Part shown: positions 16,139 through 52,642 of the stretch, piece by piece | How positions within the stretch are numbered: the first letter of the stretch is position 1 | Layout: every line of letters begins with the position of its first letter | Assembly (NCBI GenBank): GCA_044869275.1 | Contig: JBIOXB010000217.1 | Coordinates: 1 to 64,000, forward strand | Length of the DNA stretch: 64,000 bases | From: a bacterium | GTDB taxonomy: Bacteria > Zhuqueibacterota > Zhuqueibacteria > Zhuqueibacterales > Zhuqueibacteraceae | Direction: 5' to 3' | Made by a program: the position numbers and the translations under genes | The notes under the pieces: generated by a model | What the model was told of the DNA's origin: nothing | The model's input: the letters and a program-made list of their open reading frames with translations, nothing else | Databases searched by the model: none

Positions 16139-16444
16139 TCAAGGTGCGGTTCGCGGCCGTTTTCGAGCCACTTTGGATTTCGGCGCTTTTCGTGGGGCGG
16201 GATTTTCTTGTGCCCTTTTCTCTTGGGGAGGTGCTGCCTCAAGCCGCGCCAGCGCAGGCGGGGCGTAGGATTTATTCTCGACGATTTTGCCGTCGCGCAC
16301 GAGATATTTGTCCAGCGCAAATGTCGTCAAAAAATCGTCTGGGAGTTCTTCACGCGCGACGTGGAGCACCCGCCCGCCGGATGCCGTTCCGGGTTTTGTG
16401 CTGCAAGATAGGACACGGCCCTTTGCATCGTATTTGATTTCCAT
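16139..16444 (-). CDS. Small fibre-associated protein, DUF2977-like, with Lys/Pro-rich tail
   Basis: ELPDDFLTTFALDKYLVRDGKIVENKSY resembles the P.dF...F...kY....G.I..N..Y pattern of phage DUF2977; directly downstream of the fibre gene. Confidence 0.55.
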   Translation of the reverse strand: MEIKYDAKGRVLSCSTKPGTASGGRVLHVAREELPDDFLTTFALDKYLVRDGKIVENKSYAPPALARLEAAPPQEKRAQENPAPRKAPKSKVARKRPRTAP

Positions 16445-16486
16445 CGCACCTGCCAGAATTTATGCGGGTCCGCTCTTTCGAGCCTT

Positions 16487-19400
16487 TTATCCCACCAAGA
16501 TTTTCCGCACGAGGTCACCTGCGGATGAAATCCATAAATGTGTGCCGTCAAAAGCCGCGCTTTGCGGAACCCCGGGCAAGGCCAGGGTGCCCAAGTTGGC
16601 ATTTGTATCCACGTCTGCCTTGTGTAAGATGCCTTCCACCACGCCGGAATTGCTTTGCCGCTGCGCCAAGAGCCACATGTTCCGGCCGTCGAAAACCAGG
16701 TCATGGCTATCCGGAAAAACCTCCTCCGGCTGTTGGGTCAATACTCGGCCGTTGACCTCGATCTTGTAAACCGCCTGATCACCCGAGTCCGATTGACAGG
16801 CCACCCAAACATGCGCGCCGTCAAAGGCCATTGCCACCGGGGTGGCAATCAGATTGGTATTGAGCGGCGCTGCTTCTTCCTCGACGTTTCTGATCTGGAA
16901 AAGTCGCCGCGCCGCATCTCTTTCTGCACCGATCCAAACTTGGACGCCGTCAAAAACAAGAGCCGTTGGCGTGAAACTGGCACCGCCTTCACGCAGGCTT
17001 TTGTTCACGATAACCTCGGGGTCTTCCGTATCGACGATTCTTACGGTCGCAGAGCCTCTATTCGCAATCCAAAGATACCTGCCGTCGAATACGATTTCGC
17101 GAGGCTCGGAAAAATCTCTATCCAAACGCGTAACCACAGTTGCGGTGGCCGGATCGATTGCAAAAACTGAATTTCCCTCGGGCGAAGTGAACCAGACGTG
17201 CGTGCCGTCAAATGCGCCGCGCCACGTTCTTGCACCCACCGCAATCGGGAGGCCACCGCCAGGATCGGTTGTGTCCAAGCCTATCCTGGTGAGAGTCGAA
17301 GTCCTTGCGCTCGCGACCCAAATCGTGCGGCCATCGAAGACGAGGCCGGCAGGCGAGGAGGCTTCGAAAAAATAATTCCTGCCGTCGCGATAAGGCAGGC
17401 AGGGCAGCGTTTGCGCCAGTAAAGGCACAAACTGACGGCGATCGCGATGGGCGGCAGCGATCTTTCTGTTGCCGGCATTCAGGGCCTCTGCAACCGTTCG
17501 TGGGATTTCGCCTTCCGCCAGGCCGGCCGTGCAGGCGGGCGTGAACGGAATGCGATCGGCCTTCAGCTCGCAAAGCAGGTTGTTCAGAATGAATTCAACC
17601 GTGGCGGGGCCACCGGGCAGCCATTGCGGCAGCATCGCGGCGTGAAAGAGCGATTGCACCGTGGCCTCGCCATTGCCGCACGCCGGGATTTGATAACCGA
17701 TATGGCGCGCCTGGATGTTGCAAATCTCATTCAGGGCATCAGCGACGGTTTCAGTCTCTGGAGGATAAAGTTCGTTGGCGCATTCGGGCGGTCTATAGGA
17801 AACATTGTCCGCGAAGCTGAGATTGGCGTTAAAGGAAATGGGCAAGTGCGCACATTGCTGATCATCCAGCCACAGTGTCGCGCGCACTTGCTGGCTAGGT
17901 GTGATGGCATCCAGGATCCAGCGGCAGCTCGCCACGCCGGCGCCACAGTCCTTGCCGTCCTCCGTGCGGCGCACTCTGGTTTCGGTTTCGAAAACACGGC
18001 CACCACCCCCTTCTCCGATACTGCCGTTGCCATCCGTGATTTCAAACCTTACGCGCAAACCGCCTATGGGTTGATCTGCGCGCGTCACGCCAACTTTGAG
18101 GGGATATGGCAGCGGTTGGCCGGGCAAAGCTTCCTGCCCGTCGCCGCCGAGATAAAAGAAATTAAGTTGTTCCGCCAGCGGTGTAAAAATCTCCCGGCAA
18201 TCTTTCTTAACCTCCCAACCAGTGCTGGAGAGTTGCAGCACGGCCAGGCGGCAGTAGTGATGATGAATGCCGTGTCTGTCCTGAAAGTAGGAATTGCCAT
18301 TTTCATCGCGCGGCCAGTCAATACCGTCGTTGGCGGTGCGGGCCGGGATTAGCCAGTAGTCGCCGGTGTGATATGAATCGACGGACACAAATTGAACTTC
18401 GATGCCGTCCTCTAAGGAATGCCAAACGCCTCCTTCTATGCTTGGCAGGGCCGTTTCACTGTCGTTGATCTGCGTCGGTGTGGCGATGATCTCGGCGGCT
18501 TCTCGTTGATCCCACCGGCGCACCTTCCGGCCGGGACCGGTTGGAATCGCGGCCGTGGCGGTCATGGGATCGTAGGTAAGAAAACGATCCGAGCTCACAT
18601 TGACCAAGCGTACGAGCGCGCCGTTCCCCTCTCCCAATTCATGTGCGTCATCAATGATTTCGACCCATTGCCCGGCCTCGAACTTCAGCAGCTCATCACG
18701 GCTGGGCGCGCTGAGCGTGAGTTGTCCTGTTTGGAGGTCGATCGCGTCAATGGCGCGCAGAATGCTGCCGTTGTCCCGCGACCACTTGAAGGTAGCATCG
18801 GGGTCAGGGCGAAGTTCTTTGGAGGGGCGATGAACTTCCACGCGATAGAGTTGATTTTGCGCGCGACGAAAACCGAGAGTCGAAGCCGCGGAGCAGAGAT
18901 CAGCAGCGTTTGTTGCTGGGCTAACAACGCGGGCGGCAAGGCGCACGGGGCCGCGCTCCGTCAATTTCTTCCAATCCGTAAAGCTTGGATCGCAAATCTT
19001 GTCCAACTGCAAGAGTTCAAACGGGCCGAGTGATTTCACCTGCCAGACGGTCTTGGTGCGTGTGGCGGTGTCCGCGCCGCCGAGCGCGGCTTCGCGCAGG
19101 CTGGGATCTTCGACGCTGGTGATTTGGCGTTGCCAGACGTCTAAATAGGCGAGATAAAAACCGGGCTTGGTTGGGAACGCAAGCCCGGGCAGATCAGGTT
19201 GCTCGCCCCAAAGCAAATAGTTCTCGTTTTCACAGAGAATGCCATCGACGTAATAGCGTCCTTGGCCAATCAGCAGGGGAGGCTGGCCCCGCGCCAGCAA
19301 TACTTTCAATTCGTCTTTCTCGGCTTTGCTCAGCCCCGAGAGTTGGTCGATTCTCGGCGCGTCGATCAGCTCGAACCCGGCATCATCCTTGGGTGCGCCG

Positions 19401-51213: not shown

Positions 51214-51255
51214 CAGAGTGGGGCTCAAAACCCCACTCTGGGTGTTTCCGCCCCA
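51214..51255. promoter_or_regulatory. Tandem palindromic sites, putative enhancer (UAS) for the sigma54 activator
   Basis: TGGGGCTCAAAACCCCA (51219) and TGGGTGTTTCCGCCCCA (51239), both 17 bp, 20 bp apart; the first lies in a perfect 10-bp inverted repeat with no U-tract. Confidence 0.6.
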
Positions 51256-51280
51256 GTAGTGTGGAATGTGGAAGAATGCT

Positions 51281-52642
51281 TCAACTAGGCTGGCGATAAT
51301 GCAGAGGATTCATGCCGTGCTTCCTGAGCAACAGCCGCAGATTTTTGCGATCGACCGCGGCCACGCGTGCCGCGGCACTGAGATTGCCTTTGGTTTCAAC
51401 CATGAGGTCGGTCAGATAAATCCGCTCACAGCGTGTTACGGCTTCCTGGCGAATTTGCTTCAAAGTCGAGAGGCGGGCTGAGGTACGAGGCGCGCGAGGT
51501 GCGAAATCGTGAGCGCCCGCGAGCACATCCGCAACCCAAACTTGCACTTTATTCTCCAGCTCGCGAACATTCCCGGGCCAGTCGTAAGTCACCCAGTCTT
51601 GCATGATCTCGTCTGGCAAATGAGTGGCCGAGGACGCGCTCCCGCCGTGGCGTGACAAAAAACAACGCACCAAAGCCGGAATATCCGCCCTTCTCTCGCG
51701 CAAGGGCGGAACCAGCAGCGGAATGACATTCAAGCGATAATAGAGATCAGCACGGAAATTCTTCTGCTCTACCGCTTCGGCCAAATTCAAGTTTGTGGCT
51801 GCCAAAACGCGCACTTCCGCAGACAGATATTTCGAATGGCCCAGCGGACGATATTGCCGGTCCTGCAAAAAGCGTAGAAACTTGGCCTGCACGGCGAGCG
51901 GCAGGGCCTCCACCTCATCCAAAAACAATGTTCCACCACCGGCTTCCTGAATCAAGCCGCGGGAAGAAGAAGCCGCATCGGTATAAGCGCCGCGCACATG
52001 GCCAAAGAGCTCGTTTTCCACCAAATGCTCGGGAATGGCGCCACAATCGACCGTCACGAACGGCTGTCCGGCACGCGGGCCCAAATAATGAATTGCGCGC
52101 GCAATCAGCTCCTTGCCGACCCCCGTCTCTCCGGTGATGAGCACGGTCGAAGAGGAGTTCCCCAATTTCGGCAATTGCTGCATGATGAATCGCATGGGCT
52201 TGCTCTTGGCCACGATCTGGCATTCGCCCATTTGTTGGCGCAGCGTCTCTTGCAAAGTGGCGATACGATCAAGCGTGTTGATGCAATGCGAAATCTGTTC
52301 GATCAAATGGCAAGTAAACGCTTCATTTCCCGGTCGTCGCATGACTTCGTCGACACGATGCGACAGGAGCCCGGCAACTGCTTCCCAACTTTCTTCCGGA
52401 ACTACCGAAATAATCAATGCCTCCGGATAATGACATCTGAGCCCGTCAACCCAATGACGCACAGAACTGAGAGTGCTGGGATATTCTATGATGAATAGTG
52501 TTGGTTTGAAATGTTCGGGAGCGAGGAGTTTTTGCTCAGGGTCGGAAAGAGAGAAAACAGTGCATTGCGTTACTTCGCACAGAGCACGGCCAATGCTTTT
52601 CATCAAGCCGTCGTCGTTTGCCACAAAGCCAACTTGACACAT
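51281..52642 (-). CDS. Sigma54-dependent enhancer-binding activator (NtrC/Fis family) with atypical receiver
   Basis: GETGVGKE, ELFGHVRGAYTDA (GAFTGA loop), LFLDEV, FRADLYYRLNV, WPGNVREL, C-terminal HTH GNLSAAAR. Confidence 0.92.
   Translation of the reverse strand: MCQVGFVANDDGLMKSIGRALCEVTQCTVFSLSDPEQKLLAPEHFKPTLFIIEYPSTLSSVRHWVDGLRCHYPEALIISVVPEESWEAVAGLLSHRVDEVMRRPGNEAFTCHLIEQISHCINTLDRIATLQETLRQQMGECQIVAKSKPMRFIMQQLPKLGNSSSTVLITGETGVGKELIARAIHYLGPRAGQPFVTVDCGAIPEHLVENELFGHVRGAYTDAASSSRGLIQEAGGGTLFLDEVEALPLAVQAKFLRFLQDRQYRPLGHSKYLSAEVRVLAATNLNLAEAVEQKNFRADLYYRLNVIPLLVPPLRERRADIPALVRCFLSRHGGSASSATHLPDEIMQDWVTYDWPGNVRELENKVQVWVADVLAGAHDFAPRAPRTSARLSTLKQIRQEAVTRCERIYLTDLMVETKGNLSAAARVAAVDRKNLRLLLRKHGMNPLHYRQPS

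What the first reader, a model, noticed from the sequence alone, without database searches (positions are those of the whole stretch)
16139..52642. Complete, self-regulated eCIS locus carrying its own toxin-immunity payload
Seen: all structural parts of an Afp/PVC-type particle in one minus-strand run, plus an activator, promoter, two DUF4157 cargo proteins and a fibre, set between housekeeping genes. Known: eCIS lack capsid and T6SS membrane complex, and DUF4157 proteins associate with eCIS and often carry toxin domains. Inference: a probably functional eCIS in what appears to be a poorly studied lineage, with a split hub/spike, two baseplate-J and two DUF6519 genes. I cannot verify novelty without a search.
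Basis: partly seen in the sequence, partly recalled or inferred. Interest (0 to 1): 0.82.

Follow-up and report, generated by a model that had tools for sequence, protein, structure and literature searches.

The report
Injection-particle island with new toxin pair
An uncultured bacterium carries an intact 37-kb gene island for a known type of phage-tail-like injection particle, with its own likely on-switch and a swappable cargo protein ending in a predicted ADP-ribosylating toxin whose neighbouring gene is predicted to neutralise it; the machine is ordinary, while the toxin-antidote pair and the switch look undescribed.

Summary
Observation confirmed. 16139-52642 holds an uninterrupted minus-strand eCIS cluster, inserted at a site that is empty in three relatives. 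It is not Afp/PVC-type: a split spike and two baseplate-J genes define lineage II (IIa/IIc), DUF6519 is the published eBAP5 fibre anchor, and 23% of loci have several fibres. The 'odd' features are therefore known, and the gene order recurs across many phyla. Two things were not found in my searches. (1) The 1769-aa DUF4157 protein is a polymorphic, Tme-like cargo whose low-GC tip folds as an R-S-E ADP-ribosyltransferase without a Pfam family; a HEAT-repeat orthologue follows this domain in 9 of 13 loci and is predicted to bind it (0.75 vs 0.32). (2) A sigma54 activator plus -24/-12 promoter precedes the operon here and in a subset of related loci. 'Self-contained' needs caveats: no lysis gene; the long fibre gene lies behind two decayed fibre-gene stubs and an antisense TA remnant; and the genome has a stand-alone tssJLM (noted earlier by this scan on another contig) with no other T6SS genes found, although 38 of 46 genomes with this eCIS type show no TssM. 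Function is untested.

The parts
15919..53398 (.). Island: 37.5 kb between a TPR gene and a sugar-binding-protein gene
   Evidence: The two flanks are 113 bp apart in G001 and neighbours in G016 and G002; no integrase seen, best junction repeat 9 bp
51281..52642 (-). sigma54-dependent activator (receiver-like N-terminus, AAA+ domain with GAYTDA in place of GAFTGA)
   Evidence: PF00158 E 8.5e-63; loop variants in related activators; rpoN present
51052..51067 (-). Predicted sigma54 -24/-12 promoter
   Evidence: alone not significant: 4 matches vs 1.6 expected, 10 of 100 shuffles reach 4; comparative test
50651..50938 (-). 95-aa ORF that travels with the activator, possible small regulator
   Evidence: phrog_1368 E 0.023; in 10 of 58 related loci, 9 of them with the activator
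48928..50616 (-). Sheath (Afp2/3/4)
   Evidence: PF17482/PF04984; best solved relatives 8bky/8bl4 E 7e-77, Pvc2 1e-44
48322..48849 (-). Inner tube (Afp1/5)
   Evidence: PF06841 E 8.8e-47, TIGR02241
47581..48315 (-). T4 baseplate-hub-like protein (subtype gene)
   Evidence: PF12322 E 2.9e-10, phrog_150
46664..47704 (-). Pro/Ala-rich ORF (start probably near 47581), conserved in position
   Evidence: No family; homologues at the same place in many loci
45675..46667 (-). Cap/terminator (Afp16)
   Evidence: PF14065 E 6.5e-47
44126..45673 (-). Ig-like repeat protein
   Evidence: PF13620, PF02369
42094..44124 (-). AAA ATPase (Afp15), Walker A and B intact
   Evidence: PF00004 E 4.6e-25, PF22977; motifs
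41737..41988 (-). 83-aa conserved subtype ORF
   Evidence: No family; same position in many loci
40496..41740 (-). Short DUF4157 protein with an uncharacterised 240-aa C-terminal domain
   Evidence: PF13699 E 1.2e-31; C-domain has 13 other homologues, no Pfam/PHROG/PADLOC hit
39647..40303 (-). CIS_tube (Afp7 N-part, tube initiator)
   Evidence: PF19266 E 1.4e-4, under cut-off
39308..39601 (-). LysM/tail-X-like wedge protein (Afp7 C-part)
   Evidence: phrog_7145, phrog_46
38183..39304 (-). Spike hub, gp27-like half of split Afp8
   Evidence: PF05954 E 8.5e-5, phrog_52 E 2.6e-11
37689..38186 (-). Spike needle, gp5-like half of split Afp8
   Evidence: PF04717 E 2.3e-24
37366..37689 (-). PAAR-like tip
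   Evidence: DUF4280 E 0.001, under cut-off
36839..37204 (-). gp25 wedge (Afp9)
   Evidence: PF04965 E 1.1e-18
34242..36842 (-). Baseplate J, copy 1 (Afp11)
   Evidence: TIGR02243 323 bits, over cut-off
31285..34245 (-). Baseplate J, copy 2
   Evidence: TIGR02243 255 bits, PF04865
28695..31271 (-). 858-aa conserved baseplate protein in the position of the fibre adaptor
   Evidence: Hits in 66 fetched loci; only Mu gp48 E 0.11; no solved relative
27087..28685 (-). DUF6519 (eBAP5) protein A, anchor domain without an evident head
   Evidence: PF20129 E 1.9e-96
21558..26867 (-). Large DUF4157 cargo: DUF4157 (162-237), acidic spacer, conserved body with four hydrophobic segments (1203-1473), Arg-rich stretch (1470-1560), C-terminal ART-fold domain (about 1620-1769; R1639, S1683, E1753)
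20935..21531 (-). HEAT-repeat protein, predicted immunity
   Evidence: PF13646; gene pair conserved; complex model; GC3 0.41
20461..20550 (-). Decayed 5' stub of a DUF6519 gene (stub 1)
20194..20309 (-). 5' stub of the fibre gene (stub 2), 86% identical to the intact 5' end over 116 nt
19635..20150 (+). Antisense MNT gene (intact) plus HEPN gene with an internal deletion of about 60 codons and frameshifts
   Evidence: NF047752, PADLOC PDC-S09 E 2.6e-33; intact paralogous pair on C77
16487..19561 (-). DUF6519 (eBAP5) protein B: fibre with C-terminal beta-propeller head
   Evidence: PF20129; single-sequence model, pLDDT 54 overall, about 65-87 over much of the propeller; propeller matches E 7e-12
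16139..16444 (-). Small fibre-associated ORF
   Evidence: DUF2977 E 3.7e-5; PHROG tail-fibre families E 1.6e-5

Best explanation
This 37-kb island encodes an intact lineage II (eBAP5/DUF6519) contractile injection particle that is likely switched on by its own sigma54 activator, likely loads the large DUF4157 protein into the tube, and would inject it into neighbouring bacteria, where the C-terminal domain is predicted to act as an ADP-ribosyltransferase toxin while the adjacent HEAT-repeat protein is predicted to bind and neutralise it in the producer. Shown: gene content, intact frames, insertion at an empty site, modular C-terminus, conserved gene pair. Predicted by models: ART fold, toxin-HEAT binding, propeller head. 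Inferred from related systems: sigma54 control, loading through DUF4157, membrane insertion through the hydrophobic and Arg-rich segments, release by lysis, a bacterial target. The substrate is unknown; the N-x-E loop differs from the E-x-E of arginine-modifying ARTs.
For: All eight core components of Chen et al. present. Same gene order in related loci from many phyla. Empty site in 3 of 3 relatives checked. Toxin tip GC3 0.33 and HEAT 0.41 against 0.54-0.75 for the other island genes. The body is shared by at least 511 proteins; among the 119 listed the C-termini fall into 42 clusters and only 2 carry this domain; G016 has a different toxin and immunity gene in the same slot. Model pLDDT 93; top 12 structural matches are all ART-fold proteins, best Z 8.5, rmsd 3.1-3.3, 101-113 aligned; language-model neighbours are Scabin/Pertussis_S1/NarE-type; R20 invariant in 14 close sequences, S64 and E134 at least 90% conserved in 53. 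A HEAT orthologue (41-56% identity) follows the domain in 9 of 13 loci, about 5 independent. Complex score 0.75 vs best control 0.32, three runs agree in 97% of contacts, partner pLDDT at least 88; the mark was reached by 116 of 157 solved and 2 of 215 mismatched pairs. sigma54-type motif (6 or 7 of 7 positions) upstream in 13 of 19 loci with activator plus small ORF, 3 of 53 without activator, 4.8% of random windows; rpoN present.
Against: No expression, particle or activity data. No lysis gene identified in the island. Structural Z of 8.5 is only just above the level the tool calls common, and Foldseek gave no match at E<=0.001. 4 of 13 loci lack the HEAT orthologue. The activator has GAYTDA, not GAFTGA, and the closest syntenic locus (G016) scores only 4 of 7 at the promoter; loci in the promoter test are partly kin. 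The headed fibre gene lies 1.4 kb beyond the immunity gene, behind stubs and an antisense gene, so it may not be co-transcribed. The closest studied relatives in Streptomyces act inside or on their own cells. A stand-alone tssJLM exists in the genome.
Confidence: 0.66

Rival explanations
1. The particle works inside or on the producer's own cells (programmed death, differentiation, DNA release) as Streptomyces CIS do; the ART domain would be a self-directed effector held in check by the HEAT protein.
For: S. davawensis CIS with a Tme cargo of the same architecture promotes sporulation and DNA release (PMC11126660); closest solved sheaths are 8bky/8bl4 (recalled as Streptomyces coelicolor CIS); no lysis gene found.
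Against: A fibre with a propeller head and an Ig-repeat protein point to outside targets; orphan toxin-immunity modules (7 of 13 loci have the domain in a frame under 171 codons) and 42 tip types are the signature of inter-strain conflict.
Confidence: 0.15
2. The island is a recently acquired, now silent or decaying passenger: the core is still intact but the 3' end is eroding.
For: Two fibre-gene stubs and a broken HEPN gene at the 3' end; absent from this site in the only other genome of the genus.
Against: No stop or frameshift in 26 of 26 ORFs tested; full-length alignment to G016 genes; a second sample holds near-identical DNA; a stub in the same place in G016, whose core is also open.
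Confidence: 0.12
3. The particle is not released but docks on the stand-alone TssJLM membrane complex on contig C139, through the headless DUF6519 protein in place of TssK, forming a hybrid cell-anchored injector.
For: G000 has tssJ-tssL-tssM but no match for TssC, TssK, Hcp or TssF; the only other genome with this orphan cluster (G001, 88-90% identity) also has a DUF6519 eCIS; eBAP3 anchors resemble TssK and eBAP5 partly resembles eBAP3 (PMC12923769).
Against: 38 of 46 genomes with a DUF6519 match show no TssM, and all 8 that do also have TssK; syntenic G016 has only a TssK-linked TssM; the eCIS of G000 and G001 lie at different sites and are 47-82% identical while their tssJLM are about 89% identical; G000 is 94% complete.
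Confidence: 0.06

Closest known systems
eCIS lineage II, subtypes IIa/IIc (Chen et al. 2019, PMC6899500; section 10 and passages read)
   Same: Eight core genes, two afp11 copies, afp8 split into gp27 and gp5 ORFs, no afp14, extra subtype genes
   Different: Not placed between IIa and IIc (no reference tree run); host phylum returned no paper with 'KSB1' and 'contractile injection'
eBAP5 (DUF6519) fibre class (PMC12923769; section 7 and passages read; supplements not seen)
   Same: DUF6519 anchors behind the baseplate genes; more than one fibre gene (23.4% of 2585 loci)
   Different: Adaptor gene gives no Tail_P2_I hit; the fibre gene is preceded by 5' stubs; toxin cassette sits between the two DUF6519 genes
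Tme of Streptomyces davawensis CIS (PMC11126660; sections 6, 10 and passages read) and Sle1-type effectors (PMC13277306; abstract and passages)
   Same: N-terminal DUF4157, long disordered part, hydrophobic helices, Arg-rich segment, exchangeable C-terminal enzyme; an effector-immunity pair is known for a Sle1-type protein
   Different: Tip is an ART fold, not an EndA nuclease; encoded at the 3' end with an immunity gene; sequence homology to Tme not tested
R-S-E ADP-ribosyltransferase toxins: TreX/TriX of Xenorhabdus (PMC11606950, passages; PDB 8s2m), pertussis S1, Scabin; RhsF-CT (PMC13324451, abstract and passages; PDB 9ZDM)
   Same: ART fold, R-S-E triad positions; toxin at the tip of a carrier with adjacent immunity
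   Different: 12-20% identity; N-x-E loop; no Pfam model; HEAT-repeat immunity (Zhang et al. 2012, PMC3482391, passages, list HEAT immunity with Ntox34 and REase-7, and Imm41/ADP-RGHD with ART-RSE)
eCIS regulators GerE/LuxR, BTAD, RfaH (Geller et al. 2021, PMC8213781; passages)
   Same: Dedicated regulator beside the operon
   Different: Here a sigma54 enhancer-binding protein with -24/-12 promoter; 'sigma' has 0 occurrences in that paper and the search 'extracellular contractile injection' + 'RpoN' found 0 papers

Membership tests
eCIS (Chen 2019) | Core set: tube, sheath, Afp7, Afp8, Afp9, Afp11, Afp15, Afp16 | tested here: met
   Afp7 parts only under cut-off
eCIS (Chen 2019) | No capsid or terminase | tested here: met
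   None in locus; PF05065 and PF03237 give no match in G000, 94% complete; only these two families tried
eCIS (Chen 2019) | No membrane complex | tested here: inconclusive
   None in locus, but stand-alone tssJLM on C139
eCIS (Chen 2019) | Free particle released and injecting | not testable with these tools
   Needs EM and assay
Afp/PVC (subtype Ia) | Single afp8 ORF and single afp11 | tested here: not met
   Split spike, two TIGR02243 genes
Subtype IIa/IIc | Two afp11 and split afp8 | tested here: met
Subtype IIa/IIc | Afp10 PAAR tip | tested here: inconclusive
   DUF4280 E 0.001, under cut-off
Subtype IIa/IIc | Position in the Afp11 tree | not tested
   No labelled reference set at hand
eBAP5 class | DUF6519 N-terminal anchor | tested here: met
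   Two genes over cut-off
eBAP5 class | Tail_P2_I adaptor upstream | tested here: inconclusive
   858-aa gene in that place; only Mu gp48 E 0.11
Tme-like effector | Long ORF, N-terminal DUF4157, hydrophobic helices, Arg-rich segment, C-terminal enzyme | tested here: met
   (41% Arg over 91 aa)
Tme-like effector | Conserved synteny and tape-measure homology | tested here: inconclusive
   The gene before the tube initiator is the short DUF4157 protein; body has no Pfam hit; Tme sequence not compared
R-S-E ADP-ribosyltransferase | ART fold with conserved R, S, E | tested here: met
   (predicted fold)
Tox-ART-RSE (Zhang 2012) / arginine-specific ARTs | RxDxR motif; ExE loop | tested here: not met
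   RGDDY and N-x-E
R-S-E ADP-ribosyltransferase | NAD+-dependent transfer | not testable with these tools
   Needs assay
sigma54 enhancer-binding protein system | PF00158 domain, -24/-12 promoter, rpoN | tested here: met
sigma54 enhancer-binding protein system | GAFTGA loop | tested here: inconclusive
   GAYTDA; related activators vary (GAFTDA, GAFTSA, GAYTSA, GAFTGA)
T6SS-i | TssBC sheath, Hcp, TssF, TssK | tested here: not met
   No match in G000; TssB not searched

The most novel reading that the evidence does not exclude
The genus has rewired its injection machinery: having lost the T6SS tail and TssK, it keeps a conserved stand-alone TssJLM anchor and fires this eBAP5-type particle from it, with the headless DUF6519 protein as TssK substitute: an eCIS-T6SS hybrid that delivers a new ART toxin family.
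Probability: 0.06. Interest if true: 0.88.

Novelty: new member of a known kind. Interest (0 to 1): 0.4.

Why it matters
The machine itself adds one more member to a widespread subtype. Its value is in testable parts: an ART-fold toxin family of at least 106 clusters with no Pfam model, a predicted HEAT-repeat immunity protein, and homologues in cultured organisms (Cylindrospermum stagnale Cylst_2289, Pendulispora brunnea LZC95_21210); and a sigma54 switch shared by about a third of related loci (activator in 18 of 58), which suggests a way to turn on lineage II particles, few of which have been studied. If the hybrid reading held, it would blur the line between eCIS and T6SS.

Tried and rejected
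Pfam, PHROGs, PADLOC and PDB sequence searches with the toxin tip gave nothing significant; the profile's best PDB row, 9zdm_B (RhsF-CT, an RNA ART), has E 0.3 and is only a lead. Foldseek gave no match at E<=0.001. A genome-contig scan with the single tip sequence found no relative. sigma70 promoter and terminator scans were at chance level. A stricter sigma54 pattern that even the window fails gave 3 of 58 and was replaced by a position score; the consensus used is recalled. No RNA holder listed. The X2 run has no cover over the toxin tip at about 3x depth, which proves nothing. The 858-aa gene and the C-domain of the short DUF4157 protein stayed unassigned. The idea that fibre stubs are general was rejected: stub plus intact gene in 2 of 41 regions with a DUF6519 start, both in this family; 4 more have a single short copy and were not examined. 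No target-site repeat at the island ends. The GC3 value for MNT used a wrong frame and is not used. The look-up by sequence in earlier findings and the first word look-up were empty.

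
Full report
Observation. The window is contig C217 of G000 (6.67 Mb, 255 contigs, 94.4% complete). Pfam, NCBIfam and PHROG scans give, on the minus strand from 52642 down: sigma54 activator, 95-aa ORF, sheath, tube, T4-hub-like protein, Pro-rich ORF, Pvc16 cap, Ig-repeat protein, AAA ATPase, 83-aa ORF, short DUF4157 protein, CIS_tube, LysM-like protein, gp27-like hub, gp5-like needle, PAAR-like tip, gp25, two baseplate-J genes, an 858-aa conserved gene, DUF6519-A, a 1769-aa DUF4157 protein, a HEAT-repeat protein, DUF6519-B and a 101-aa fibre-associated ORF. 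None of the 26 ORFs tested has an internal stop and none of the structural genes has a second copy outside the locus. Independent Logan contigs match at even depth with two synonymous differences.

It is an island. In G001, the other genome of the genus, the TPR gene ending at 15918 and the sugar-binding gene starting near 53400 are 113 bp apart; they are also neighbours in G016 and G002. G001 and G016 have DUF6519-type clusters elsewhere (3 of 41 genomes match DUF6519, G000 included), and G016's is syntenic from activator to fibre. Pvc16 matches 22 of 167 genomes of the phylum, 12 of the 18 other family members, so eCIS of several types are common in this family.

Class. Chen et al. 2019 (PMC6899500, section 10 read) state that subtypes IIa and IIc have two afp11 copies and a split afp8 and that lineage II generally lacks afp14; Afp and PVC are subtype Ia. 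DUF6519 is the eBAP5 fibre anchor, found in 658 genes, and 23.4% of 2585 loci have more than one fibre gene (PMC12923769). A scan with the sheath found 145 relatives; the 79 loci kept come from Acidobacteria, Chloroflexi, cyanobacteria, Proteobacteria, Bacteroidetes and others, and those with enough flank repeat this gene order.

Payload. The large DUF4157 protein has an acidic spacer, four hydrophobic segments at 1203-1473 and a stretch of 41% arginine at 1470-1560, the layout described for Tme of Streptomyces davawensis (PMC11126660). Its body is shared by 511 proteins at E<=1e-10 among 7992 scored. For the 119 listed, coverage falls from 79 at residue 1600 to 5 at 1650, the last 130 residues form 42 clusters, and 2 carry the same tip. 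GC3 drops to 0.33 in the tip and 0.41 in the HEAT gene. In G016 the same slot holds another DUF4157 protein with a different, nuclease-like tip (my reading of the motif) and a TPR-like gene. So the slot between the two DUF6519 genes is a polymorphic toxin cassette. The tip has 106 relatives among 1.84 billion representatives and no Pfam family. Its model (pLDDT 93) matches ART-fold proteins in the top 12 rows, best pertussis S1 and the antibacterial TreX at Z 8.5; this Z is modest and Foldseek stayed above E 0.001, but the language-model neighbours of the Cylindrospermum homologue agree and R1639, S1683 and E1753 are conserved. The loop reads N-x-E rather than the ExE of arginine-modifying ARTs, so the substrate is open. 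In 13 metagenome loci with this domain a HEAT orthologue of 41-56% identity follows directly in 9 (about 5 independent); 4 have another gene or none; 7 have the domain in a short frame, like orphan modules. Other HEAT proteins of G000 reach only 24-31%. The complex model scored 0.75 against a best control of 0.32 (mark reached by 116 of 157 solved and 2 of 215 mismatched pairs; runs agree in 97% of contacts, partner pLDDT at least 88). Zhang et al. 2012 list HEAT immunity with other toxins, not with ARTs; one search for the combination returned 3 papers, of which I read passages of one. The short DUF4157 protein has a C-domain with 13 other homologues and no assignment.

Regulation. The match at 51052-51067 is not significant alone. 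Of 82 loci supplied, 77 had 350 nt upstream; a motif with at least 6 of 7 scored positions was found in 13 of 19 with activator and small ORF (mostly 25-66 nt before the small ORF; 130 nt here), 14 of 24 with activator, 3 of 53 without, and 4.8% of 3000 random windows. These loci include kin, so this is support, not a statistic. rpoN is present. The activator loop is GAYTDA, and G016 scores only 4. Geller et al. name GerE, BTAD and RfaH as eCIS regulators; two searches found no paper linking eCIS to sigma54 (supplements not seen).

The 3' end. Between the HEAT gene and DUF6519-B lie two stubs of the fibre gene's 5' end and an antisense MNT gene with a broken HEPN partner. G016 has one such stub directly after its immunity gene; the other 39 regions with a DUF6519 start have no stub beside an intact gene. 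I read the stubs as scars of cassette exchange or insertion that used the conserved fibre 5' end; this is inference. They leave open whether the headed fibre (propeller) is co-expressed.

No match for capsid PF05065, terminase PF03237, TssC, TssK, Hcp or TssF in G000, but tssJ-tssL-tssM stands alone on C139, conserved at 88-90% with the same upstream genes in G001 and nowhere else among 167 genomes. Against a link: 38 of 46 genomes with a DUF6519 match show no TssM and all 8 others have TssK. I give the hybrid reading 6%.

Verdict. A real, intact, horizontally placed eCIS of a known subtype: new member, interest 0.4, carried by the undescribed ART-HEAT pair and the sigma54 module.

Noticed in passing
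G000:C139:50511-55263 (L095/L096): Stand-alone tssJ-tssL-tssM with no other T6SS genes found in the genome; 88-90% identical copy with the same upstream genes in G001, which also has a complete T6SS.
   Followed up: partly
window 20194-20550; L097:19652-19753: 5' stubs of the DUF6519 fibre gene directly after the immunity gene, in G000 (two) and G016 (one).
   Followed up: partly
window 19635-20150: Antisense MNT-HEPN pair with deleted HEPN; intact paralogous pair on C77 (MNT 65% identical).
   Followed up: yes
window 48535 and 48541: Both laid runs read A where the window has G, at full depth; third codon positions in the tube gene, synonymous; probably consensus errors of the assembly.
   Followed up: yes
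window 37297-37364 and 16020-16082: An 8-bp tandem repeat between tip and gp25 genes (141 BLAST hits in the genome) and a short dispersed element near the left island end (21 hits).
   Followed up: no
window 51215-51255: Two GGG-N9-CCC palindromes upstream of the promoter; related loci show GGA/GGG-N-TCC/CCC palindromes in the same place, candidate activator binding sites (seen by eye).
   Followed up: no
L089, L090, L093: An extra gene sits between activator and small ORF, and by eye has its own -24/-12-like motif upstream.
   Followed up: no
L165/L166 (G190:C264): A locus with four full-length DUF6519 genes.
   Followed up: no
L151:3719-6601: Two tandem copies of the ART-HEAT module without a carrier body.
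   Followed up: no
L107 (G001:C46): A second, different eCIS in G001 with two sheath and two tube genes.
   Followed up: no
8 of 46 genomes have a TssK match but no TssM match, the reverse of G000.
   Followed up: no
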